From contig JAISJI010000068.1 of the NCBI GenBank assembly GCA_031261605.1, forward strand, positions 2,771 through 66,770: a stretch of 64,000 nucleotides of DNA, in the 5' to 3' direction. The notes below the pieces were generated by a model that saw nothing but the letters and a program-made list of their open reading frames with translations, did not search any database and had not been told where the DNA came from. Positions 21,399-30,759 of this stretch are shown in pieces. Position numbers and translations under genes: made by a program. The stretch comes from Ignavibacteria bacterium (GTDB taxonomy: Bacteria > Bacteroidota > Ignavibacteria > Kapaibacteriales > UBA2268). Positions within the stretch are counted from its first letter, which is position 1; each line of letters starts with the position of its first letter.

Positions 21399-22658
21399 CT
21401 ATATTTCAATTTTCTTAAAACAAACCGTTGCATTGTGTCCGCCAAAGCCAAATGTATTGCTCAATGCAGCACTGATTTCACGTTCTTTCGGCTTGTTTGG
21501 CGTATAGTCCAAATCGCATTCTGGGTCAGGTGTTTCATAGTTAATTGTCGGTGGAACAATGCTGTGCTCCATCGCAAGTATTGTCGCAATCGCTTCTATT
21601 GCTCCTGCTGCTCCGAGCAAATGTCCGGTCATAGATTTTGTAGAACTGATAGACAACTTCTTGGCATAATCGCCAAAAGTCCCTTTGATAGCAATGGTTT
21701 CGTTCTTATCATTGAAGTAAGTTGATGTGCCGTGTGCATTAATGTAATCTATATCGGTCGGAAGTATTTTCGCATCCTCAATAGCAAGTTTCATTGAACG
21801 AACTGCACCTTCTCCACCATCCGCCGGCTGCGTAATATGAAAAGCATCATCGGTAAGACCAAAGCCAGCAATCTCGCAATATATCTTAGCACCGCGATTT
21901 TGTGCGTGCTCCAATGTCTCAAATATCAATATTCCTGCTCCTTCGCCTATCACAAAGCCATCTCTATCCTTGTCAAATGGACGACTTGCGTGCTCTGGGT
22001 CATCGTTACGTGTAGATAACGCCTTCATTGCATTGAAACCTCCTACTCCCATAGGCGATACAACCGATTCCGAACCACCAACCAGCATCACATCTGCATC
22101 GCCACGCTGCATAATCATAAGAGCATCTGCTATTGCGTGTGATGACGTCGCACAAGCCGATACTGTGCCATAGTTCGGTCCTTTCAATCCCCAACGAATA
22201 GCAATCTGTCCCGGAGTAATATCTGATATCAACATCGGTATAAAGAACGGCGAGATACTACTCGGATTTCCACCTGATTTTATTACTACTTCCTGCTGAT
22301 TATAATATGTCCACATTCCACCAATACCACTACCTATAACGCATCCAATACGCTCTCTGTTCTCTTTTTCGAAATCTATCCCAGAATCCTGAACAGCCAA
22401 TGTCGCCGCTGCCATTGCAAGACGAGTAAAATTATCCATTCGCTGGATTTCTTTGCGATTAAGAAACTGAAGCAAGTCCAAACCCTTTACTTCGCAAGCA
22501 AACTTGGTCTTGAAGTTAGTTGTATCAAAACCTGTAATCATAGCAGCACCACTCTTTCCGGCAAGCAATGCTTGCCAAAATTCATTCTTATTGTTGCCGA
22601 TGGCAGTAACCGGACCAAGCCCCGTTACGACTATTTTTGGGTAATTATATTTTGACAT
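21399..22658 (-). CDS. fabF: 3-oxoacyl-ACP synthase II.
   Basis: MSKYNYPKIVVTGLGPVTAIGNN... ~419 aa. KAS II active-site region ...ACATSSHAI... and HGTSTYFNDK. Lies downstream of acpP. Confidence 0.9.
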   Translation of the reverse strand: MSKYNYPKIVVTGLGPVTAIGNNKNEFWQALLAGKSGAAMITGFDTTNFKTKFACEVKGLDLLQFLNRKEIQRMDNFTRLAMAAATLAVQDSGIDFEKENRERIGCVIGSGIGGMWTYYNQQEVVIKSGGNPSSISPFFIPMLISDITPGQIAIRWGLKGPNYGTVSACATSSHAIADALMIMQRGDADVMLVGGSESVVSPMGVGGFNAMKALSTRNDDPEHASRPFDKDRDGFVIGEGAGILIFETLEHAQNRGAKIYCEIAGFGLTDDAFHITQPADGGEGAVRSMKLAIEDAKILPTDIDYINAHGTSTYFNDKNETIAIKGTFGDYAKKLSISSTKSMTGHLLGAAGAIEAIATILAMEHSIVPPTINYETPDPECDLDYTPNKPKEREISAALSNTFGFGGHNATVCFKKIEI

Positions 22659-22754
22659 AGTTTTTACAATTTGTGTATTAAGAATAAGTTATACCAATCC
22701 GATACCCCGCTCAATACCGAACAGGGCATAGATGGTATGTTAATCGGATGATTA

Positions 22755-22997
22755 TTAGCCCAATTTCTTCTCTAAGTATTCAATGACATTGCCGACAGTT
22801 TGAACTTTCTCTTGGTCTGCTTCGTCAATAGAGATATTGAACTCTTTTTCTATTTCAAGCATTACTTCCACAGTATCGAGCGAATCTGCGCCGAGGTCTT
22901 TTGTGAAAGAAGCTTCAGGAGTAACTTGCGATTCTTCTACTCCGAGTTTGTTTACAACGATTTTGATAACGTGTTGTGTGATTTCTTTGGTATCCAT
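22755..22997 (-). CDS. acpP: Acyl carrier protein.
   Basis: 80 aa. DLGADSLDTVEVMLEIEKEF contains the phosphopantetheine-attachment Ser. Confidence 0.95.
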   Translation of the reverse strand: MDTKEITQHVIKIVVNKLGVEESQVTPEASFTKDLGADSLDTVEVMLEIEKEFNISIDEADQEKVQTVGNVIEYLEKKLG

Positions 22998-23030
22998 TTA
23001 ATTTACCTTTTGATTTATGTATGTGAAAAA

Positions 23031-23100
23031 TATATATTTATTTATGTTTATGTTTTTGGTTTTGTTATAATTGACGTTACTTCTTACCATTAAATGTAAT
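23031..23100. repeat. Copy 1 of a ~60-bp direct repeat, located just upstream of the acpP start.
   Basis: aaaaatatatatttatttatgtttatgtttttggttttgtta...cttcttaccattaaatg. Near-identical to 24340-24400 apart from small indels. Confidence 0.6.
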
Positions 23101-23473
23101 CTAAACCCAGCAACTCCAATTCGGTAATAACCGATATGTATATATGTTTGTTATTAAGAAAATCTGCAATAAATTGATTTCCATTTAGTAAATGTATCAG
23201 CGGGTTTGTATCACACAATATTCTAATTCCATTCATTCCTTATATTCTTTTGATACTGAAGTGGTTCTTCGTTCCAATTTATTTTTCCCGCAAATTTTTG
23301 CGAATTGAACTGCTTTTGCGATTCCATATTGGATAGAAGTTTATTTAGTTCTATTTTATTTGTTTCTTTGTTTATTGCAATAAGCATACTATTTCTCCAT
23401 ATAAAAAAAATTACACGATAACTATACTGTGTTTACATCAATCCTTCTTTGATGAAAATCTCCAATATTTTCC

Positions 23474-24322
23474 TCAACATAACGCTGCGATATATCCACT
23501 ATATTCATGCTTTGAATTCTCTTTATTAATTGAATCATTTATCATCTCAAAATACTCCGGCAATATCTCTATCCCTATAGTGTTGCGGTGCATTCTATTA
23601 GCAACTATATTGGTCGTCCCTGAACCCGCAAATGGGTCAAGCACCAAGTCACCTTCTTTCGTAAATAACTTAATAAACCACTCCGGTAAATCCTCTGGAA
23701 ATGCTGCACTATGATTTTTATTATTGCATTCCGTGGCTAAGTGTAATACATTAGTGGGATATGCTTTTTTTCTATCTATCCAATTGGAAATATTTTTGCC
23801 AAATCCACTACCATTCTTGGAATTATCTCGTATCTTATCTGTATCACTCAAATTCCTAAGACGGGACTTCGCCCAATCGCCCATTTCTACCATCACTTCA
23901 TCCTGATACATATTAAAATGCTTGTCTTTATTGAATTGCAACAATCGCTCCCAAGCATCCCTAAATCTATTGGGCCACTTACCCGGAAAGCAATTCTTCT
24001 TATGCCAAATAAATTCCTCTGTCCAAAACCAGCCCTGCTTACGCATCTCAAGAATTAGTTCCATTACATAAGTGCTACGTTCACCTTCAACAACCTTTTC
24101 CTTAATATTCAAAATAAAAGTCCCTGTCGGCTTTAATATCCGCAACAATTCCTTCGAAATCGGAAGAAACCATTCCACATATTTATTCGGCGAAATTCCG
24201 CCATAAGTAGATTTCCGCTGGTCCGCATACGGCGGCGACGTAATAACTAAATCCACATAATTATCCGGCATCTTACTCATCGTTTGCAGACAATCTTCAT
24301 TATATATTTCGCAAAACTCCAT
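23474..24322 (-). CDS. Beta-class DNA amino-methyltransferase (N6-adenine or N4-cytosine). Appears solitary or orphan.
   Basis: Motif IV DLVITSPPY lies N-terminal to motif I DLVLDPFAGSGTT, which is the beta-class order. 282 aa. Confidence 0.85.
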   Translation of the reverse strand: MEFCEIYNEDCLQTMSKMPDNYVDLVITSPPYADQRKSTYGGISPNKYVEWFLPISKELLRILKPTGTFILNIKEKVVEGERSTYVMELILEMRKQGWFWTEEFIWHKKNCFPGKWPNRFRDAWERLLQFNKDKHFNMYQDEVMVEMGDWAKSRLRNLSDTDKIRDNSKNGSGFGKNISNWIDRKKAYPTNVLHLATECNNKNHSAAFPEDLPEWFIKLFTKEGDLVLDPFAGSGTTNIVANRMHRNTIGIEILPEYFEMINDSINKENSKHEYSGYIAALC

Positions 24323-24339
24323 AAACTCTTTCCAACACC

Positions 24340-24400
24340 TTCAAAAAAAATATATATTTATGTTTGTTTTTGTTTTTGTTACTTCTTCCATTCAATATGC
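24340..24400. repeat. Copy 2 of the ~60-bp direct repeat. It overlaps the 3' end of the 112-aa ORF and sits ~20 nt upstream of the methyltransferase start.
   Basis: aaaaaatatatatttatgtttgtttttgtttttgtta cttcttccattcaatatg. Aligns to 23031-23100. Confidence 0.6.
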
Positions 24401-24717
24401 CCATTCATATTGTATTTTTCAAATACCTTTAGAACTTCAGCACTAAAGGTTGTTAATTCTTTATCGCCTAATTTTTTAGATAACTCATACAGATGTATGA
24501 ACATTTTCTTTCCGGATTCTGTTTGCTTGTAAACCTTTTTCTCAAATAAAGTTTTCACCAAAAAATAATCTATAAAATTATCCTGACGAAGCAATATCTG
24601 CATATCAAAAAGCATCTCCCTTTCCAGTAAATCCCTATCCGATGGACTTTCGCTGTTAATTTCTTTAGCGATATAGTCCAATTCTTCTTGCTGTTCTTTT
24701 TTACTTAATTTAATCAT
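24379..24717 (-). CDS. Hypothetical 112-aa protein, translationally coupled to the upstream 367-aa ORF.
   Basis: ATGA overlap with the 367-aa ORF at 24714-24717. Charged, probably helical. No motif recognised. Confidence 0.5.
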   Translation of the reverse strand: MIKLSKKEQQEELDYIAKEINSESPSDRDLLEREMLFDMQILLRQDNFIDYFLVKTLFEKKVYKQTESGKKMFIHLYELSKKLGDKELTTFSAEVLKVFEKYNMNGHIEWKK

Positions 24718-25817
24718 ATCTGCAATGGTATTTGTATTCTTTCTCTTTTGTGTTGAATGTCTGATTCTAAGTGTTGCAATATCCTTGAGCCAAGCGAAGT
24801 AAATATCACCCTATCGTAAAATCCACTTGTTTTTACTTTTTCGGTAAGCTCTAATTCTTCACAATGATTACAAGAAAATCTAAGAACATCAGCAACAGTT
24901 CCTTCGGTGTAATCCATTTTGAAAAAACTATTTACAAAATCAAATTCTGATTTTTTTTGAAATGCCCGCCCACGAGGAAGCCATTCCCCATCTGTTAATG
25001 CAATGAATTTCAGAAAATAATAAATATTGATTTTGCATTTCTTTTCGTAAAAATTACCATTTAATAATGACTCCAGCAATATCCTCTTCTGCTCTACGCT
25101 TAGATTTATCCGCTTCAATTTATCTGTAATTTCCACTGCATTAATATTGTCTCTGAAGCGAACGCCAAAATCCGTAAGTTGTATCGTATTACGAACTTTA
25201 TTTAGCAAATCAAAATCCTCTGCAACTCTAACAGCGACATTAAATCTTGTTTTTGTTACTCCATCGCTAAAATTAAAAGCATCGCCAAAATCCTTAATCG
25301 CTAATCTGTCAGCATTATTCTCATAGAATGGGACAAACAACCTATTCAAACCACCGAGATGCGTAAAATTCAATGATATTGGTGGAGATAGTGGAACTCC
25401 GTTATTAATCAATGCCTTTTGTATTTCAGTATCATATAGCAACCTAATTTTATCTAAATCATAATCAAACCAAAGCAAATCATTTGCATCACAGAAAGTT
25501 ACAATTTCATTAGTATAATAAACCGGTGTTTGCTTGGCGAATAAAATCCCCACTTTGTGTTGAAAACCTTTCGCCAAAATAATATTTGTATATTGATTAC
25601 TTTGCTGCAAACAATAGGACAATTTTGCTTTACTATCTATTATAGTTTCAAGTTCTGTAATCAGAAAGCCATCATTCTTTATTTTATGAGCAAAATCAAT
25701 TCTACCATAAGCGGTTGTAAATTGCTGGCATACTTTATTCGCTAAAGGTAGAGAAATGCACTCTTGTAAATAATTCCTTTCTCTTAATAGAGTCCATTCC
25801 ACAAGGTATTCATTCAT
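24714..25817 (-). CDS. Hypothetical 367-aa protein. Candidate restriction endonuclease or defence nuclease with weak PD-(D/E)xK-like spacing. Function unknown.
   Basis: A GGAGG RBS precedes the ATG. N-terminal GRIDFAH...ITELETIIDSK could be a D...E..DxK nuclease motif. One CxxC (CNHCEE). Sits in a methyltransferase neighbourhood. Confidence 0.5.
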   Translation of the reverse strand: MNEYLVEWTLLRERNYLQECISLPLANKVCQQFTTAYGRIDFAHKIKNDGFLITELETIIDSKAKLSYCLQQSNQYTNIILAKGFQHKVGILFAKQTPVYYTNEIVTFCDANDLLWFDYDLDKIRLLYDTEIQKALINNGVPLSPPISLNFTHLGGLNRLFVPFYENNADRLAIKDFGDAFNFSDGVTKTRFNVAVRVAEDFDLLNKVRNTIQLTDFGVRFRDNINAVEITDKLKRINLSVEQKRILLESLLNGNFYEKKCKINIYYFLKFIALTDGEWLPRGRAFQKKSEFDFVNSFFKMDYTEGTVADVLRFSCNHCEELELTEKVKTSGFYDRVIFTSLGSRILQHLESDIQHKRERIQIPLQI

Positions 25818-25829
25818 TACAGACCTCCA

Positions 25830-25943
25830 TTAAATCCCCACATTATACGGTGGCGACGTTACAATCAAATCAATGAACGGCGCATCAAATAAATCGCTAT
25901 TCAACGAACTATCATTTAGCAACTCTATACCTTTAAACTCCAT
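25830..25943 (-). pseudogene. N-terminal remnant of a second beta-class methyltransferase gene: 38 codons, truncated right after the SPPY motif.
   Basis: MEFKGIELLNDSSLNSDLFDAPFIDLIVTSPPYNVGI* is homologous to the N-terminus of the intact methyltransferase (MEFCEIYNEDCLQTMSKMPDNYVDLVITSPPY). It starts 8 nt after the fabG stop and is followed 1 nt after its stop by the RBS of the 367-aa ORF. Confidence 0.65.
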
Positions 25944-25951
25944 AAAACCAC

Positions 25952-26698
25952 CTACATCACCATCCCGCCATCTATATGAACCACCTGTCCCGTCAAATAA
26001 CTCGCATCTTCCGAACAAAAGAAACTAACCACATTCGCTATATCTTCCGCCTCTGCTGCCCGCTTAAGTGGTATCCCTTTCAAAAATTCCTGCTTCACTT
26101 CATCGCTCAATACATCCGTCATCGGTGTCCGAACAAAACCCGGCGCTACATAATTGCAAAGTATATTCCGACTACCAAGTTCCTTCGCTACCGACTTCGT
26201 AAAGCCGATTAATCCTGCTTTTGATGCCGAATAATTGGCTTGACCTGCGTTCCCCATAACTCCTACAACCGAACCCATATTCACAATGCGACCATAACGT
26301 TGAGACATCATATAGCGACTCACAACCTTCGTGCAAAGGAACACTCCCTTGAGATTAGTCGACAGCACAGCATCCCAATCGCTCTCATTCATCCGCATAA
26401 GCAAGTTATCACGGGTAATTCCAGCATTGTTGATTAAGAAATCAATACGCTGACTCTCGGCTATTATCGCATCCATAACGCTTTGCACCTGCTCGAAATT
26501 GGTAACATCGAGTTGCTTAACTATCGCATTCTTAGCCAATTCGGCATCTGTGATAAACACCTCTTCTGCATTTGGAATAGCATAATCAAGAGCATATACT
26601 TTCGCTCCTTCTTTGAGAAGACGTTCCACAATCGCTTTGCCGATACCACGACATCCGCCGGTTACTACGGCTATTTTATTTTCAAATCTATTACACAT
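25952..26698 (-). CDS. fabG: 3-oxoacyl-ACP reductase.
   Basis: SDR. IAVVTGGCRGIGKAI, NAG, YSASKAGLIGFTKSVAKE, and a C-terminal GQVVHIDGGM typical of FabG. Confidence 0.9.
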   Translation of the reverse strand: MCNRFENKIAVVTGGCRGIGKAIVERLLKEGAKVYALDYAIPNAEEVFITDAELAKNAIVKQLDVTNFEQVQSVMDAIIAESQRIDFLINNAGITRDNLLMRMNESDWDAVLSTNLKGVFLCTKVVSRYMMSQRYGRIVNMGSVVGVMGNAGQANYSASKAGLIGFTKSVAKELGSRNILCNYVAPGFVRTPMTDVLSDEVKQEFLKGIPLKRAAEAEDIANVVSFFCSEDASYLTGQVVHIDGGMVM

Positions 26699-26781: not shown

Positions 26782-27321
26782 CTACGCCTCAGCAGGTGCT
26801 TCTGCAACTTCTGCTTCTTTGGCAGCATTTGCAGCATCCTCGGCTGCTTTTGCCTCAGCAGCGGCTTTTGCGGCTGCCTCTTCTTCTGCTCTACGTTTTG
26901 CATCTTCGGCTTCTTGTTCTTCGCGTTTCTTAGCGTCTTCGGCTTCCCGAACGCGTCTGATTTTGCGAGCAGCACGCAACTTCTTACGACGTTCCCATCG
27001 TGATGCTACTACTGATTGATGCTTCTCTAATTCCGCATTAATCTCTGCTTCTGATTTGCCTTTGAACTGCAATGCCCGGCGTAACAAAACGCCATCGTAA
27101 CTAAGCAAATTATGAACGATATCGGTCGCTTGTGCTCCGTTATTTAGCCAATAAATAGCGCGTTCGTGGTTGATTTTTATCGTGCTTTTGGTCGTATTCG
27201 GGTCATAATATCCGAGGTCTTCCAAAAATGTGCCATCTCTACGGGCTCTGCCGTCAACAGCTACGATGTCATAGACAGGGTGAAATTTCTTACCCTTACG
27301 TCTTAATCTGAGTTTTACCAT
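26782..27321 (-). CDS. rpsP: 30S ribosomal protein S16 with a long Ala/Lys/Glu-rich C-terminal extension.
   Basis: MVKLRLRRKGKKFHPVYDIVAVDGRARRDGTFLEDLGYYDP matches S16. About 90 aa of low-complexity KAAAEAEAK tail. Confidence 0.9.
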   Translation of the reverse strand: MVKLRLRRKGKKFHPVYDIVAVDGRARRDGTFLEDLGYYDPNTTKSTIKINHERAIYWLNNGAQATDIVHNLLSYDGVLLRRALQFKGKSEAEINAELEKHQSVVASRWERRKKLRAARKIRRVREAEDAKKREEQEAEDAKRRAEEEAAAKAAAEAKAAEDAANAAKEAEVAEAPAEA

Positions 27322-27487: not shown

Positions 27488-29140
27488 CTACTCCCCAAAA
27501 CTATACACCGCCATATTCTCCAAATACTTGTCATCCACAACACGCACCGCTACATTATGAACACCACCTTCCGCAAAGTTATGAACCCGAACACCATTCT
27601 TGTCATACAAAACACTCGGATTAAATTTACCAACCTCCTGTGGAAACTTGTGTGCCGGTATCGGATAATTAAAATCCCAACTATAATTGATTATCACACT
27701 ATCACTCACCGCTCGAAATTCATACTTCCCATCCAACGTCTTGCTACAATCTATGCGAACTACTGGACGTTTCGCTACATCCACTATCTCGCTCACCAAC
27801 ACACGCTCTATCAATATACCATCCTCATTCTTTAACCGAGCCATCTCCTGAACCGCCTCCTTTGCAAAATCAAATGCTATGAAATAACCAACCGGTAAGC
27901 CATTCTCCTGCTTCTCCTTAAACTTCCGACCAGCGTGACATACCGAAAAAAACTTCTGTATCTCCACTCGCCCTATCTTATTCTTCCAACTCTTCACCTG
28001 TATCGGCACATCATCCTTCATCCCATCACTACCGTGGTCACCACGCTGCTTCTCATTCGGAGTGCCACCAAACTTACCTACTATCCACGTCTCAAACTCA
28101 AATGGGTCCATCGCTCGTAAGTCCTCCTCGGCGAAGTAGTGCTTCTCAATCTCGTAATTTGTAAATATTCCATTCGCTTGCAAACGCTTGTCTGTCACAT
28201 CTAACGCTGCGATGGACTGGTCTATTCCGATAAAATTCCGCTGCAAATTATTCGCCATCAACATTGTCGTCCCACCACCCATAAATGGGTCAAGCACCAC
28301 ATCTCCTTCGTTAGAGGATGCTTTGATAATCCGCTCAAGAAGTGCCAGCGGCTTCTGTGTAGGGTAACCAATCTTTTCTATAGATGTTCCTTGAACATTT
28401 TGTATATCAATCCAGTCGTTCCCGATTAATTGCCCCTTTGTCTCACTTAAATATCTTTTTATACGCAATCGTTGATGTTGAGATTTTGGAAAATATATTT
28501 TATTGTCCGCATCCCATTTTTGCATTGTTTCAAACGGACAACGCCAGCCATTTGCATTTGGCAAATACCCTTTATACTCATAGTTATATCCGCCCGGTCT
28601 TGTGTTTGTTAAATCTCCCAACGAATATTTTCCTTTACCATCCATATCATCATACTTGTAAAAATTACATGAATATTTTTCAGTAAGTTCAGAGTATATC
28701 GGATTAAAAGAAAAATTATTTGACTTAGAATAATACCAAATTGTATCTGTTAATACTGCCAATTTTTTCTTTGCATCATTGTGTGCATTGGTTCTTTTCC
28801 AAATTATATGCCCTCTAAAATTTTCATACCCAAATTCCTTATCCAAAATCATCACCCTAATATATGCATCGGCATGCCAGTCGCAATGCAAATATATAGA
28901 GCCGGTGGGCTTGAGCAAGCGATGCATTTCTTTCACTCGGTCGTAAAGCCAGTTGATATATTGGTCTATGCCACCACTCCATCTGTCCTCAAAGGAGCGT
29001 ATTTCGCCGGCATCTCCCCAAATAATTTCGTAATTACGATTAGAGAAGAATGGCGGGTCAAGGTAAATGAGAGCAATGCTTTCTGCGGGCATTTTCTTCA
29101 TTACTTCGAGGCAGTCGCCGAGTATTATTTTATTTTGCAT
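27488..29140 (-). CDS. Beta-class DNA amino-methyltransferase fused to an Mrr-cat (PD-(D/E)xK) restriction-endonuclease-like domain, with a C-terminal PKD-like beta-sandwich tail.
   Basis: Motif IV IALIYLDPPF, motif I DVVLDPFMGGGTT. Then FEFETWIVGKFGG...RGDHGSDGMKDDVPIQVKSWKNKIGRVEIQKF, which fits the Mrr-cat signature F..l....G....gDgGiDg....Q.K. The tail carries YSWDF ... GVHNVAVRVVDD. Confidence 0.75.
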   Translation of the reverse strand: MQNKIILGDCLEVMKKMPAESIALIYLDPPFFSNRNYEIIWGDAGEIRSFEDRWSGGIDQYINWLYDRVKEMHRLLKPTGSIYLHCDWHADAYIRVMILDKEFGYENFRGHIIWKRTNAHNDAKKKLAVLTDTIWYYSKSNNFSFNPIYSELTEKYSCNFYKYDDMDGKGKYSLGDLTNTRPGGYNYEYKGYLPNANGWRCPFETMQKWDADNKIYFPKSQHQRLRIKRYLSETKGQLIGNDWIDIQNVQGTSIEKIGYPTQKPLALLERIIKASSNEGDVVLDPFMGGGTTMLMANNLQRNFIGIDQSIAALDVTDKRLQANGIFTNYEIEKHYFAEEDLRAMDPFEFETWIVGKFGGTPNEKQRGDHGSDGMKDDVPIQVKSWKNKIGRVEIQKFFSVCHAGRKFKEKQENGLPVGYFIAFDFAKEAVQEMARLKNEDGILIERVLVSEIVDVAKRPVVRIDCSKTLDGKYEFRAVSDSVIINYSWDFNYPIPAHKFPQEVGKFNPSVLYDKNGVRVHNFAEGGVHNVAVRVVDDKYLENMAVYSFGE

Positions 29141-29205: not shown

Positions 29206-30594
29206 TCATAGTTCAGACAAATCCCCCAGCAACCTCTCCCCTACCTCGTAGATATTACCTGCACCAAGCGTAATCACTACATCCTTCGGACGCAATATTT
29301 TGCGAAGTTCCTCCGTAAGAGCATCCCTATTGGGAACGTATGTGAAGTGCTTGTAGCCCGCTTCTACTGCGGCATCCACTATGATTTGTCCGGTAATACC
29401 CGGAAGCGGCTCCTCACGTGCCGGATAAACATCGGTTACAAAAGCCAATGCAGCATCAGCAAATGAATTAGCAAAATCCTTGTAAAACTCCTTCGTCCGC
29501 GTATATGTATGCGGCTGAAAGACAGCAATGATACGCCTGTCAGCATAGTTACGAAGTCCTTTGAGTGTCGCTTTTATTTCGCTCGGATGATGCGCATAAT
29601 CATCAATAACGATAATATCATTCACCTCTCCCTTAATCTCAAATCGGCGAAAAGCCCCGTGAAACCGCTCTATCACAGCGGCAATGAGATTGAAACTGAC
29701 ATTGAATTGACGTGCAACAAGCACTGCACCTAATGCATTCTTAATATTGAATTCACCAGGAACATTAAGCGTCATCTCGCCGAGCAGTTGCCCGTATTCA
29801 TAGACCTCGCAAGTGGAAGTGAAGTTGTGGAAGCGAATATTTTTCGCTGTGTAATCGGCTGCGTTGTCCAAGCCAAAAGTAATCACTTTCTTACGCAACA
29901 TCGGGATAACATTTTGCACACCTTCATCATCTATACCCGTAGCAATAAAGCCATAGAATGGAGTCATATTGGCGAATTGTGCGAATGTATTTTGCAAATC
30001 CGCAACATCCTTATATATATCCAAATGCTCCGCTTCAATGTTGTTAATCACGGCGATGGTAGGTAGCAGTTGTAAGAACGACCTATCGTATTCATCCGCT
30101 TCAACCAATGACCACTGGCTATGACCAAGACGAGCATTCGTTCCACCAAGGTCTTTCAGACGACCACCTACGACAACAGTCGGGTCTATACCGGCTGCAA
30201 TGAGCATTAATGCAAGCATTGACGTAGTTGTTGTCTTGCCGTGTGTGCCGGAAACAGCAATGCAATAGTTGAGACGGGAAATCTCTGCAAGCATCTCTGC
30301 TCTGCGGATTACCGGTATCTTTCGGCGATTTGCTTCAAGCACTTCCGGATTTGTATCTATATGCACAGCGCTGGAATAGACCACCACATCCGCATTTGAT
30401 GCAGCAATATTATTCGCAGAATGCCCGTAATAGATAGTCGCACCAAGCGATTCCAAGTGCTCGGTATTCTCTGAGCGAGCCATATCGGAACCGCTAATGG
30501 TAAAGTCCTTGTTAAGTAGTATCTCTGCGATACCGCTCATTCCTATTCCACCGATACCGATGAAATGTATTTTTTGTATGTTTTGAAATAGCAT
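29206..30594 (-). CDS. murC: UDP-N-acetylmuramate--L-alanine ligase.
   Basis: IHFIGIGGIGMSGIAEIL, SGTHGKTTTTSM. ~463 aa from the Met at 30594. Confidence 0.9.
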   Translation of the reverse strand: MLFQNIQKIHFIGIGGIGMSGIAEILLNKDFTISGSDMARSENTEHLESLGATIYYGHSANNIAASNADVVVYSSAVHIDTNPEVLEANRRKIPVIRRAEMLAEISRLNYCIAVSGTHGKTTTTSMLALMLIAAGIDPTVVVGGRLKDLGGTNARLGHSQWSLVEADEYDRSFLQLLPTIAVINNIEAEHLDIYKDVADLQNTFAQFANMTPFYGFIATGIDDEGVQNVIPMLRKKVITFGLDNAADYTAKNIRFHNFTSTCEVYEYGQLLGEMTLNVPGEFNIKNALGAVLVARQFNVSFNLIAAVIERFHGAFRRFEIKGEVNDIIVIDDYAHHPSEIKATLKGLRNYADRRIIAVFQPHTYTRTKEFYKDFANSFADAALAFVTDVYPAREEPLPGITGQIIVDAAVEAGYKHFTYVPNRDALTEELRKILRPKDVVITLGAGNIYEVGERLLGDLSEL

Positions 30595-30610
30595 CGTTTG
30601 TTTATTATAA

Positions 30611-30644
30611 TTTTGATACAAAAATAAATATTTTTGTATCAAAA
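30611..30644. promoter_or_regulatory. Perfect 16+16-bp inverted repeat with a 2-nt spacer (TTTTGATACAAAAATA aa TATTTTTGTATCAAAA) in the murC/sensor divergent intergenic region. Candidate operator.
   Basis: Read directly from the sequence. Lies 17 nt upstream of the murC start codon. Confidence 0.5.
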
Positions 30645-30759
30645 TCACTATTTGTATTACTTTTTCCCAATATATTATCTGCCAAATTTTGTTAATATAT
30701 AATATTTCATTAAATTATACGATAATTGATATATTACATATTTTTATTAACCTCTAAAA

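What the first reader, a model, noticed from the sequence alone, without database searches (positions are those of the whole stretch)
27488..29140. Methyltransferase fused to an Mrr-type nuclease domain and a PKD-like tail, wedged between rpsP and murC
The 550-aa protein has an N-terminal beta-class amino-methyltransferase module (DPPF ... DPFMGGGTT). It is followed by a block matching the Mrr catalytic (PD-(D/E)xK) signature: FEFETWIVGKFGG...GDHGSDG...VPIQVKSW...GRVEIQKF. After that comes a ~120-aa beta-sandwich-like tail with YSWDF and GVHNVAVRVVDD, resembling a PKD domain. Mrr-cat domains are normally the cleavage modules of modification-dependent (Type IV) enzymes. Covalently coupling one to a methyltransferase is atypical. 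It could represent a single-chain RM enzyme, or a methyltransferase whose nuclease domain targets differently modified foreign DNA.
Basis: partly seen in the sequence, partly recalled or inferred. Interest (0 to 1): 0.6.

Follow-up and report, generated by a model that had tools for sequence, protein, structure and literature searches.

The report
Methyltransferase–Mrr nuclease–PKD fusion enzyme
The gene is real and encodes a DNA adenine methyltransferase fused to an intact Mrr-type nuclease and a PKD-fold tail; it belongs to a large, uncharacterised family that most likely acts as one-protein restriction-modification enzymes, a variation on a known theme.

Summary
The ORF at 27488-29140 (-) and all three domain calls are confirmed.

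- **Methyltransferase:** a beta-class N6_N4 domain (Pfam E=3e-47; DPPF and DPFMGGGT motifs).
- **Nuclease:** an Mrr_cat domain above Pfam's gathering score. It carries the complete Mrr catalytic set E350, D368, D372, Q381-x-K383.
- **Tail:** a beta-sandwich whose best structural matches are bacterial PKD domains. Pfam's PKD models do not reach significance.

The fusion is not a one-off. At least 593 loci in species-representative genomes encode it, across Ignavibacteria, Bacteroidota, Spirochaetes, Planctomycetes, Thiotrichales and others. A few viral contigs also carry it, and shorter MTase-Mrr forms without the tail are commoner there.

In 65 intact members both catalytic sites are invariant. 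The catalytic scaffolds are conserved (73% and 66% identity) but the internal target-recognition region is hypervariable (34%). That pattern is typical of restriction-modification families that diversify their specificity.

No conserved partner gene exists. About 10% of loci add one or two tandem methyltransferase paralogs with swapped recognition regions, as in Eco57I/BpuSI-type systems.

Best reading: a single-chain Type IIC/IIS-like restriction-modification enzyme. BtgZI (MTase at the N-terminus, D-QxK nuclease at the C-terminus) and LlaGI are precedents. Activity is untested. I rate it a new variant of a known kind, of moderate interest.

The parts
27488..29140 (-). Complete gene for the 550-aa MTase-nuclease-PKD fusion protein (stop codon at 27488-27490)
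   Evidence: ORF list. Identical to NCBI MDR0927931.1. N-terminus aligns with 39 full-length homologs.
28805..29140 (-). Methyltransferase catalytic lobe 1 (residues 1-112), with motif IV DPPF at 29048-29059
   Evidence: Pfam N6_N4_Mtase E=2.8e-47. D28-P-P-F31 is invariant in 65/65 family members. Coordinates verified by translation.
28436..28804 (-). Internal target-recognition region (residues 113-235), inserted between motif IV and motif I as in beta-class and Type III Mod enzymes
   Evidence: Mean pairwise identity across 65 members is only 34%, against 73% for the catalytic core. It is also the region that differs between the fusions and their tandem companion MTases (33-41% against 77-90% in the core). 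The whole model matches EcoP15I Mod best (4zcf, E=6e-21).
28175..28435 (-). Methyltransferase catalytic lobe 2 (residues 236-322), with the AdoMet-binding motif I DPFMGGGT at 28268-28291
   Evidence: Pfam. PDB sequence hits to CcrM, M.MboIIA and RsrI over residues 228-316. D284, F286, G288 and G290 are invariant in 65/65.
27776..28129 (-). Mrr-type PD-(D/E)xK nuclease domain (residues 338-455). Catalytic residues: E350 (28091-28093), D368..D372 (28025-28039), Q381-V-K383 (27992-28000)
   Evidence: Pfam Mrr_cat at 23.2 and 25.7 bits, gathering score 21. hhalign places GDxGxDG...QxK(R/S)W.N.GR.E.Q.F on the E. coli Mrr core. [quoted passage not shown] D368, D372, Q381 and K383 are invariant in 65/65, and E350 in 64/65. 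The residue pattern equals the LlaGI catalytic set E38, D74, D78, Q92, K94 (PMC3553963).
27491..27766 (-). C-terminal PKD-fold beta-sandwich (residues 459-550)
   Evidence: Foldseek against PDB: the top 9 hits are all bacterial protease PKD domains (6aem, 4aqo, 4tn9, 4jgu, 4l9d; E about 1e-4, TM about 0.7). A family profile hits ColG/ColH PKD domains at E about 0.1. Pfam PKD is sub-threshold (E=0.15; 5 of 25 members hit at E<1). Multi-PKD proteins appear as multi-stretch hits of the C-terminal profile.

Best explanation
The gene encodes a self-contained, single-polypeptide restriction-modification enzyme. In Type II nomenclature it would be Type IIC ('combined') and probably Type IIS-like.

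**Proposed mechanism (inferred, not shown).**
- The N-terminal beta-class, Type III-Mod-like adenine-N6 methyltransferase reads a short DNA sequence through its internal recognition region.
- On host DNA it methylates that site.
- On unmethylated incoming DNA, the recognition module holds the C-terminal Mrr-type nuclease (E...D-x3-D...Q-x-K) next to the site, and the nuclease cuts.
- There is one active site per chain, so a double-strand break would need two molecules to come together, as proposed for other Type IIC enzymes.
- The PKD-fold tail would be a spacer, a DNA-contact module or an oligomerisation module.

**Shown here.** The three folds are present. Both catalytic motif sets are intact and invariant across the family. 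The recognition region is hypervariable on a conserved scaffold. The gene stands alone and has a patchy, mobile distribution.

**Inferred.** Methylation activity and its adenine-N6 chemistry (from DPPF), cleavage activity, coupling of cleavage to methylation state, and the role of the PKD domain.
For: 1. **Both catalytic sites are intact and conserved.** DPPF and DxFxGxG are present in 65/65 family members. The nuclease residues D368, D372, Q381 and K383 are present in 65/65, and E350 in 64/65, across members from different phyla. They are also conserved in the window's own divergent subclade. In 50%-identity representatives the commonest residue patterns are EDDQK (54) and QDDQK (35) among 129 aligned domains, many of the remainder being fragments. 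Of 35 viral-contig domains, 29 keep D..D..QxK or a close variant.

2. **These residues are known to be essential in a relative.** They are the Mrr-family catalytic residues; alanine substitutions at D74, D78 and K94 abolish LlaGI cleavage (PMC3553963).

3. **The domain-wise divergence fits an RM family that diversifies specificity.** Mean identity is 73% for the MTase core, 66% for the nuclease and 53% for the PKD tail, but 34% for the recognition region.

4. **There is no conserved partner gene.** This holds in four long-contig contexts and in 80 genome loci.

5. **Some loci add companion methyltransferases.** In 8 of 80 loci, one or two MTases sit in tandem. Where I compared them within a locus (four loci) they are 77-90% identical to the fusion in the core and 33-41% in the recognition region. 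Seven of the ten companion ORFs lie just upstream on the same strand. This mirrors Eco57I (one extra MTase) and BpuSI (two) (PMC4081073).

6. **The gene behaves like a mobile RM gene.** Its phyletic spread is patchy, several genomes carry multiple paralogs, one copy in Beggiatoa is split by an insertion sequence, and copies occur on viral contigs.

7. **A characterised enzyme has the same domain order.** BtgZI has its MTase at the N-terminus and a PD-QxK nuclease at the C-terminus.
Against: - No member of this family has been tested, and I found no paper on it.
- PADLOC recognises only the methyltransferase part among the 25 of its 71 hits that were shown.
- The Mrr_cat hit for this protein is only just above threshold and covers profile positions 1-81 of 115.
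- Some relatives have Q381 replaced by S and match the Pfam family named for an inactive nuclease domain (NA-iREase1). Streptomyces phage Dwayne gp48 is one. An REase fold attached to this methyltransferase can therefore be kept with an altered catalytic motif, possibly without catalysis.
- Most of the nuclease domain is conserved (50 of 133 columns at 90% or more), so invariance of five residues is supportive rather than decisive.
- All well-studied Type IIC enzymes except BtgZI have the opposite layout, with an N-terminal nuclease and a gamma-class MTase.
Confidence: 0.6

Rival explanations
1. It is a solitary (orphan) DNA adenine methyltransferase. The REase-fold and PKD domains are non-catalytic accessories that increase DNA binding, processivity or oligomerisation, in the way the C-terminal domain of CcrM or the ParB-like domains on phage and plasmid methyltransferases do.
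For: The gene stands alone among housekeeping genes. NCBI and JGI usually name homologs simply as methyltransferases. Related phage proteins carry an REase-fold domain with Q replaced by S that best matches Pfam NA-iREase1, 'inactive restriction endonuclease'. A few representatives show EDDSK or EADLK instead of EDDQK. Shorter forms are frequent on viral contigs, where protective methylation is the usual role of a methyltransferase.
Against: The complete Mrr catalytic set is invariant in 65/65 family members and in the window's divergent subclade. It is also kept in 29 of 35 viral-contig domains. A purely structural domain would be expected to lose these residues, as the minority variants did. 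A hypervariable recognition region and multiple paralogs per genome are unusual for housekeeping orphan methyltransferases, which tend to have a fixed specificity.
Confidence: 0.17
2. The Mrr-type domain acts as a modification-dependent (Type IV-like) nuclease against foreign DNA carrying other modifications, while the methyltransferase has a separate, regulatory or self-marking role.
For: Mrr_cat is the cleavage module of Mrr and MspJI-type modification-dependent enzymes (PMC12707154). The core of the window's domain resembles E. coli Mrr closely (KSWKNKIGRVEIQKF against KRWQNTVGRPELQAF).
Against: In Type IV enzymes a separate reader domain (winged helix, SRA, PUA) senses the modification. 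None is detected here: residues 1-322 are an intact methyltransferase and residues 459-550 are a PKD fold. The same Mrr-type module serves enzymes that cut unmodified DNA, such as LlaGI and BtgZI. An enzyme that writes m6A and also carries a nuclease against methylated DNA risks attacking itself.
Confidence: 0.06
3. It is one component of a larger system: a Type III-like Mod protein whose nuclease needs a helicase or translocase encoded elsewhere. Alternatively it is a methyl-directed nicking enzyme used for strand discrimination or repair, like a fused Dam and MutH.
For: The best structural match of the whole model is the Type III Mod subunit of EcoP15I, followed by a Helicobacter Mod (4zcf, 6k0w; E=1e-18 to 6e-21). 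PADLOC Type III MTase models hit strongly. Three of 80 loci have a DEAD-box helicase gene downstream. A single nuclease site per chain would nick rather than cut.
Against: No Res-type helicase or any other conserved neighbour is present in the window or in 77 of 80 related loci. The three helicase-linked loci include two Planctomycetaceae MAGs that probably share synteny, and the helicase is DEAD/Helicase_C rather than ResIII. The patchy, multi-copy, phage-associated distribution does not fit a repair function.
Confidence: 0.08

Closest known systems
BtgZI, an atypical Type IIC/IIS restriction-modification enzyme (GCGATG 10/14)
   Same: It is a single polypeptide with the methyltransferase at the N-terminus. 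Its C-terminal PD-(D/E)xK variant has glutamine in place of glutamate, giving D...QxK, the Mrr-type signature (Pingoud et al. 2014, PMC4081073).
   Different: BtgZI's methyltransferase is alpha-class; here it is beta-class with an internal, Mod-like recognition region. No PKD tail is reported for BtgZI. I did not have the BtgZI sequence, so homology of the two nuclease domains was not tested.
Type ISP enzymes LlaGI and LlaBIII
   Same: An Mrr-family nuclease and a methyltransferase share one chain. The catalytic residue set is identical: E38, D74, D78, Q92, K94 in LlaGI against E350, D368, D372, Q381, K383 here, including the D-x3-D spacing (PMC3553963).
   Different: LlaGI has the nuclease at the N-terminus, a helicase-like ATP motor, a gamma-class methyltransferase and a separate C-terminal recognition domain. 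The window protein has no motor and the reverse domain order.
MmeI, Eco57I and BpuSI-type Type IIG/IIC enzymes
   Same: They are combined R and M in one protein. Their families have swappable specificity. They occur alone (MmeI) or with one or two companion methyltransferases (Eco57I, BpuSI) (PMC4081073). The same three arrangements are seen in this family.
   Different: Those enzymes have an N-terminal PD-ExK nuclease and a gamma-class (NPPY) methyltransferase with a C-terminal recognition domain. All RM fusions with solved structures belong to that topology (bioRxiv 10.1101/2023.12.13.571470).
Type III Mod subunits (EcoP15I Mod; PDB 4zcf)
   Same: This is the best structural match of the whole model (E=6e-21). 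It is a beta-class adenine methyltransferase with the recognition region between motif IV and motif I. Sequence hits to Mod proteins were also found.
   Different: Type III systems place the nuclease on a separate Res helicase subunit. Here the nuclease is fused directly and no Res gene is nearby.
E. coli Mrr (Type IV) catalytic domain, Pfam PF04471
   Same: The catalytic core motif GDxGxDG...QxK(R/S)W.N.GR.E.Q.F aligns. The Pfam family hit is above the gathering score.
   Different: Mrr has an N-terminal winged-helix reader of methylated DNA and no methyltransferase. The profile comparison against the single Mrr sequence is weak overall (hhalign probability 15%, E=0.0017).

Membership tests
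Beta-class N6/N4 amino-methyltransferases (Pfam PF01555 N6_N4_Mtase) | Pfam hit above the gathering score | tested here: met
   162 bits against a gathering score of 26.7, E=2.8e-47, residues 22-314.
Beta-class N6/N4 amino-methyltransferases (Pfam PF01555 N6_N4_Mtase) | Permuted motif order: catalytic (D/S)PP(Y/F) first, then the recognition region, then the AdoMet motif FxGxG | tested here: met
   DPPF is at residues 28-31 and DPFMGGGT at 284-291. Structural matches are to RsrI, MboIIA, CcrM and EcoP15I Mod.
Beta-class N6/N4 amino-methyltransferases (Pfam PF01555 N6_N4_Mtase) | DNA methylation activity, and the target base (m6A or m4C) | not testable with these tools
   DPPF rather than SPPY suggests adenine-N6 from general knowledge of these motifs. 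No methylome or assay is available.
Mrr-type PD-(D/E)xK nuclease domain (Pfam PF04471 Mrr_cat) | Pfam hit above the gathering score | tested here: met
   23.2 bits for the full protein and 25.7 bits for the C-terminal part, against a gathering score of 21. The hit covers profile positions 1-81/82 of 115. More distant MTase-fused relatives, linked to this domain at E about 1e-20, hit Mrr_cat at up to 43 bits over the whole profile.
Mrr-type PD-(D/E)xK nuclease domain (Pfam PF04471 Mrr_cat) | Catalytic signature E...D-x3-D...Q-x-K, with glutamine in place of the usual glutamate | tested here: met
   E350, D368, D372, Q381 and K383 are present, and are invariant or nearly so in the family. They align to the E. 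coli Mrr core and match the LlaGI residue set.
Mrr-type PD-(D/E)xK nuclease domain (Pfam PF04471 Mrr_cat) | [quoted passage not shown] | tested here: inconclusive
PKD domain (Pfam PF00801 / PF18911) | Pfam hit above the gathering score | tested here: not met
   PF00801 gives 12.6 bits against a gathering score of 23.5 (E=0.15). PF18911 gives 12.1 bits against 27. Only 5 of 25 family members hit at E<1.
PKD domain (Pfam PF00801 / PF18911) | PKD-type beta-sandwich fold | tested here: met
   The nine best Foldseek PDB hits are all PKD domains (E=8e-5 to 6e-4, TM 0.61-0.72 normalised to the target). A family profile aligns WDF.. and ..IAVKVVD..G with ColG PKD WDFGDG and ..VTLKVTDDKG.
Type IIC / IIG combined restriction-modification enzymes | Nuclease and methyltransferase domains in one polypeptide, sharing one recognition module | tested here: met
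   Domain architecture. There is only one recognition region, and it is hypervariable across the family.
Type IIC / IIG combined restriction-modification enzymes | [quoted passage not shown] | tested here: not met
   The order is reversed and the methyltransferase is beta-class (DPPF). Only BtgZI is cited as a comparable exception. I therefore describe it as working like a Type IIC enzyme, not as a member of the MmeI/Eco57I lineage.
Type IIC / IIG combined restriction-modification enzymes | Demonstrated sequence-specific cleavage blocked by cognate methylation; stimulation by AdoMet | not testable with these tools
   This needs biochemistry or in vivo restriction assays.
Type IV (Mrr-like) modification-dependent restriction enzymes | A modification-reading DNA-binding domain (winged helix, SRA, PUA or similar) joined to the nuclease, with no cognate methyltransferase | tested here: not met
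   Pfam, NCBIfam and structure show only MTase, Mrr_cat and PKD. The N-terminal domain is an intact methyltransferase.
Type III restriction-modification systems | A Mod methyltransferase paired with an adjacent Res helicase-nuclease gene | tested here: not met
   The Mod-like fold is present, but no Res gene is in the window. None recurs among the neighbours in 80 related loci.

The most novel reading that the evidence does not exclude
This would be the first recognised example of a large, untested architectural class of restriction-modification enzymes. The class would be a helicase-less, Type III-Mod-like beta-class methyltransferase carrying its own Mrr-type nuclease and a cytoplasmic PKD domain, with recognition regions that are naturally swapped. 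It spans many bacterial phyla and occurs on phage contigs. If active, it would offer a new scaffold of compact enzymes with shuffled specificities, and a new intracellular, DNA-related role for the PKD fold.
Probability: 0.35. Interest if true: 0.55.

Novelty: new variant of a known kind. Interest (0 to 1): 0.4.

Why it matters
If the family is active as predicted, it adds a third layout of single-chain restriction-modification enzyme. The other two are the classical nuclease plus gamma-MTase Type IIG enzymes and the lone alpha-class example, BtgZI.

The family comes with hundreds of natural recognition-region variants on a nearly constant scaffold. That is the raw material used to decode and re-engineer specificity in the MmeI family.

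It would also show that a Mod-like methyltransferase can be armed without a helicase subunit. And it would give the PKD fold, normally extracellular, a role inside a DNA enzyme.

For genome annotation, these genes are currently labelled inconsistently as 'restriction endonuclease', 'site-specific DNA-methyltransferase' or 'hypothetical protein'. Among the top PADLOC matches shown, only the methyltransferase half is recognised.

Tried and rejected
- **Sequence-profile search of PDB with the C-terminal module.** It found no nuclease, only sub-threshold PKD hits and spurious S8 hits.
- **Relaxed selection on the window's own nuclease.** The window's nuclease/PKD part is only 46%/39% identical to the main clade, and 17 of 50 near-invariant nuclease positions differ. 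I considered decay and rejected it. A subclade of fragments (P0390-P0392) shares these variant features at 62-65% identity and keeps all catalytic residues.
- **A conserved partner gene.** Neighbour clustering in 80 loci found only tandem paralogous methyltransferases, in 8 loci.
- **Defence-system models.** The PADLOC matches shown (top 25 of 71) are Type II, Type III and orphan MTase models only.
- **Literature.** Searches for the fusion (Mrr_cat with N6_N4_Mtase; Mrr-like with methyltransferase; PKD with restriction-modification) found no study of this family. The Haloferax HVO_A0006 paper turned out to concern an unrelated Type IIG fragment.
- **Promoter and terminator scan around the gene.** It was uninformative; no terminator was found.
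- **Inferring the recognition site from word avoidance.** The window shows extreme depletion of many 4-bp palindromes, which cannot be assigned to this enzyme.
Full report
**Observation.** The window has a 550-codon ORF at 27488-29140 on the minus strand. It lies between a ribosomal protein S16 gene (26782-27321) and a Mur ligase gene of murC type (29206-30648); both were confirmed with Pfam. The protein is identical to NCBI MDR0927931.1, annotated 'restriction endonuclease [Ignavibacteria bacterium]' and, by JGI, 'DNA modification methylase'.

**Domains.**
- *Methyltransferase.* Pfam places N6_N4_Mtase on residues 22-314 (E=2.8e-47).
- *Nuclease.* Pfam places Mrr_cat on residues 341-414 at 23.2 bits, just above the gathering score of 21. 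Scanned alone, the C-terminal 228 residues give Mrr_cat 25.7 bits (E=1.3e-5).
- *Tail.* The same scan gives only a sub-threshold PKD hit (E=0.15).
- *Predicted structure.* AlphaFold2 models are confident: full length pLDDT 85 and pTM 0.71, C-terminal module pLDDT 89.8. They show a methyltransferase domain, then a helix-strand-strand-strand-helix-strand nuclease-type core (residues about 338-455), then a seven-strand beta-sandwich (about 459-549).
- *Fold matches for the tail.* The nine best Foldseek matches of the C-terminal model in PDB are all PKD domains of secreted bacterial proteases (6aem, 4aqo, 4tn9, 4jgu, 4l9d; E about 1e-4; TM about 0.7 relative to the target).
- *Fold matches for the whole model.* The best matches are the Type III Mod subunit of EcoP15I (4zcf, E=6e-21) and a Helicobacter Mod, then RsrI, CcrM, M.MboIIA and M.BceJIV. 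This fits a beta-class enzyme with its recognition region between motif IV (DPPF, residues 28-31) and motif I (DPFMGGGT, residues 284-291).

- A profile of the family's C-terminal module, compared with E. coli Mrr, aligns exactly the catalytic core: GDHGSDG...VPIQVKSWKNKIGRVEIQKF against GDGGIDG...VYVQAKRWQNTVGRPELQAF. The statistics are weak (E=0.0017, probability 15%) because the target was a single sequence.
- An exhaustive profile search found more distant relatives whose nuclease domains match ours at E about 1e-20 to 1e-23. Those relatives hit Mrr_cat at up to 43 bits over the whole Pfam profile.
- The residues E350, D368, D372, Q381 and K383 reproduce the catalytic set defined experimentally for the Mrr-family nuclease of LlaGI (E38, D74, D78, Q92, K94). 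Single alanine changes at D74, D78 or K94 abolish LlaGI cleavage (PMC3553963).

**A large family.**
- The word-indexed search scored 8000 hits. The 120 best listed mostly cover 97-100% of the query at 51-61% identity and are 488-602 residues long. They come from Ignavibacteria, Chloroherpetonaceae, Bacteroidota, Planctomycetes, Spirochaetes and Cloacimonetes.
These include Thiotrichales (Thiomargarita, Beggiatoa), Chloroflexota, Desulfobacterales, many termite-gut MAGs and the cultured Thiospirillum jenense DSM 216.
- Several genomes carry two to four paralogs, for example one Bernardetiaceae MAG (L009, L018, L019, L034).
- The exhaustive search of 50%-identity representatives with the C-terminal profile gave 993 hits at E<=1e-3, of which 72 were at E<=1e-30.
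- The same nuclease type occurs without the PKD tail in 410-485-residue MTase-Mrr_cat proteins, and behind HEAT-repeat or zinc-ribbon N-termini.
- IMG/VR viral contigs hold a few full-length members and about 25 of the shorter MTase-Mrr_cat form. Of 35 nuclease domains detected there, 29 keep D..D..QxK or a close variant.

**Conservation pattern.** I analysed 65 intact full-length members from different species.

| Region | Mean pairwise identity |
|---|---|
| Methyltransferase core | 73% |
| Nuclease | 66% |
| PKD tail | 53% |
| Internal recognition region | 34% |

DPPF, the motif I residues, D368, D372, Q381 and K383 are invariant in 65/65; E350 is present in 64/65. A conserved double-catalytic scaffold around a hypervariable recognition module is the pattern expected of restriction-modification enzymes that diversify their specificity.

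**The window's own copy.** Its nuclease and PKD parts are unusually diverged from the main clade (46% and 39% identity), and 17 of 50 near-invariant nuclease positions are changed. This is not decay. A single-sequence search found a subclade (P0390-P0392, 62-65% identical) that shares its peculiarities: EIEKHY, KxWKNKIGR, AFDFAKEA, and a PIPAHKHPQE insertion in the PKD domain. That subclade keeps all catalytic residues.

**Genomic context.**
- No neighbour is conserved. Four long-contig contexts differ completely. Clustering all neighbouring ORFs in 80 genome loci found only one recurrent family, present in 8 loci.
- That family is a stand-alone beta-class methyltransferase of 300-340 residues. 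Seven of the ten companion ORFs lie upstream on the same strand, those I checked within about 40 nt or overlapping.
- Where I compared companion and fusion within a locus (four loci), the companions are 77-90% identical to the adjacent fusion in the catalytic core. They are only 33-41% identical in the recognition region.
- Thiospirillum jenense has two such companions ahead of the fusion.
- This reproduces the three arrangements described for Type IIC enzymes: alone (MmeI), with one methyltransferase (Eco57I), or with two (BpuSI) (PMC4081073).
- In the window the gene is solitary.
- In Beggiatoa leptomitoformis the gene is split by a DDE transposase insertion.
- The patchy phyletic spread, paralogy, insertion-sequence disruption and presence on viral contigs are typical of mobile defence genes.

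**Mechanism.** I conclude, with about 60% confidence, that the protein is a self-contained restriction-modification enzyme. The Mod-like methyltransferase reads the site and protects host DNA by adenine methylation. The tethered Mrr-type nuclease cuts unmethylated DNA at or near the site. Double-strand cleavage would require two molecules because there is one active site per chain. The PKD domain would act as a spacer, DNA contact or oligomerisation module.

Only the anatomy and conservation are shown. Methylation, the m6A chemistry (inferred from DPPF rather than SPPY), cleavage and its control by methylation are all inferred.

**Rival explanations.**
- *Orphan methyltransferase with a non-catalytic DNA-binding appendage (about 0.17).* Its best support is a set of relatives in which Q381 is replaced by serine and the domain matches Pfam's NA-iREase1 'inactive REase' family, for example Streptomyces phage Dwayne gp48. 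Invariance of the full catalytic set in this family argues against it.
- *Type IV-like, modification-dependent nuclease (about 0.06).* There is no reader domain for modified DNA.
- *Type III-like system needing a remote helicase, or a nicking/repair enzyme (about 0.08).* Neither has contextual support.

**Comparison with known systems.**
- The closest described enzyme is BtgZI, cited as the one Type IIC enzyme with an N-terminal (alpha-class) methyltransferase and a C-terminal PD-QxK nuclease (PMC4081073).
- LlaGI and LlaBIII also unite an Mrr-family nuclease with a methyltransferase, but with a helicase motor and a gamma-class methyltransferase.
- All RM fusions with solved structures belong to the gamma-type topology.
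- The present protein therefore works like a Type IIC enzyme but is not a member of the MmeI/Eco57I lineage. It is a beta-class, Mod-like variant with an added PKD fold.
- I found no publication on this family. REBASE could not be consulted.

**Verdict.** I rate it a new variant of a known kind, with interest 0.4. It is a well-defined, abundant and experimentally tractable family, but a predictable extension of known restriction-modification architectures rather than a surprise.

Noticed in passing
window 1-64000: Short palindromes are extremely depleted. GATC occurs once (about 233 expected from dinucleotide-preserving shuffles) and GGCC 4 times (about 122 expected). By my own count, GTAC occurs 7 times, CATG 11, CTAG 21 and AGCT 29, against Markov expectations of about 125-225. 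This suggests unusually heavy pressure from 4-bp-cutting restriction enzymes in this Ignavibacteria lineage.
   Followed up: partly
window 22700-25950 (ORFs 23474-24322, 24379-24717, 24714-25817, all on the minus strand): A low-GC patch (0.28-0.35 against about 0.44 in the flanks) lies between fabF (21399-22658) and a fabG-like gene (25952-26698). It holds a second RM-like cluster: a 282-aa SPPY-type (probably m4C) N6_N4 methyltransferase, a 112-aa ORF and a 367-aa ORF. The two smaller ORFs have no Pfam or PADLOC match, and the 367-aa ORF also has no NCBIfam match; it is a candidate restriction endonuclease. The patch looks like an island inserted into the fatty-acid synthesis operon.
   Followed up: partly
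window 25830-25943 (-): A 37-codon remnant of the N-terminus of another methyltransferase (MEFKGIELL...LIVTSPPYNVGI, then a stop) sits directly after the fabG-like gene. It is probably a relic of an older RM system displaced by the island.
   Followed up: no
L016:2980-6665 (Thiospirillum jenense DSM 216); also L013, L031, L041, L077, L085: Tandem arrays run methyltransferase, (methyltransferase), then MTase-nuclease-PKD fusion. In the four loci compared, the catalytic cores within a locus are 77-90% identical, more than between orthologous fusions of different species. The recognition regions are only 33-41% identical. This points to local duplication or gene conversion together with recognition-region swapping.
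   Followed up: partly
L023:3531-4916: Close to a family member, a 461-aa protein joins an N6_N4 methyltransferase to a staphylococcal-nuclease (SNase) domain. This is a different methyltransferase-nuclease fusion.
   Followed up: no
L087:2971-4617 (Streptomyces phage Dwayne gp48, and related Likavirus phages): A phage 'DNA methylase' of 548 aa has the same methyltransferase (34% identity) fused to an REase-fold domain. In it the QxK glutamine is serine (VSVK), and its best Pfam match is NA-iREase1, 'inactive restriction endonuclease' (E=2e-15).
   Followed up: partly
L005:3530-6098 (Beggiatoa leptomitoformis chromosome CP018889.2): The family member is split into a 177-aa N-terminal piece and a 365-aa C-terminal piece by a DDE transposase gene inserted on the opposite strand.
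   Followed up: no
L009, L018, L019, L034 (one Bernardetiaceae MAG); L022 and L028; L055 and L074; L068 and L075: Single genomes carry two to four paralogs of the fusion. I did not compare the paralogs with one another, but each is about 42-54% identical to the window protein, consistent with several specificities per cell.
   Followed up: no
window 26782-27321 (-): The ribosomal protein S16 gene encodes 179 residues, but only residues 8-66 match the S16 domain. The rest is a long Lys/Ala/Glu-rich C-terminal extension. That extension also produces spurious Ala/Ser-rich ORFs on the opposite strand.
   Followed up: no
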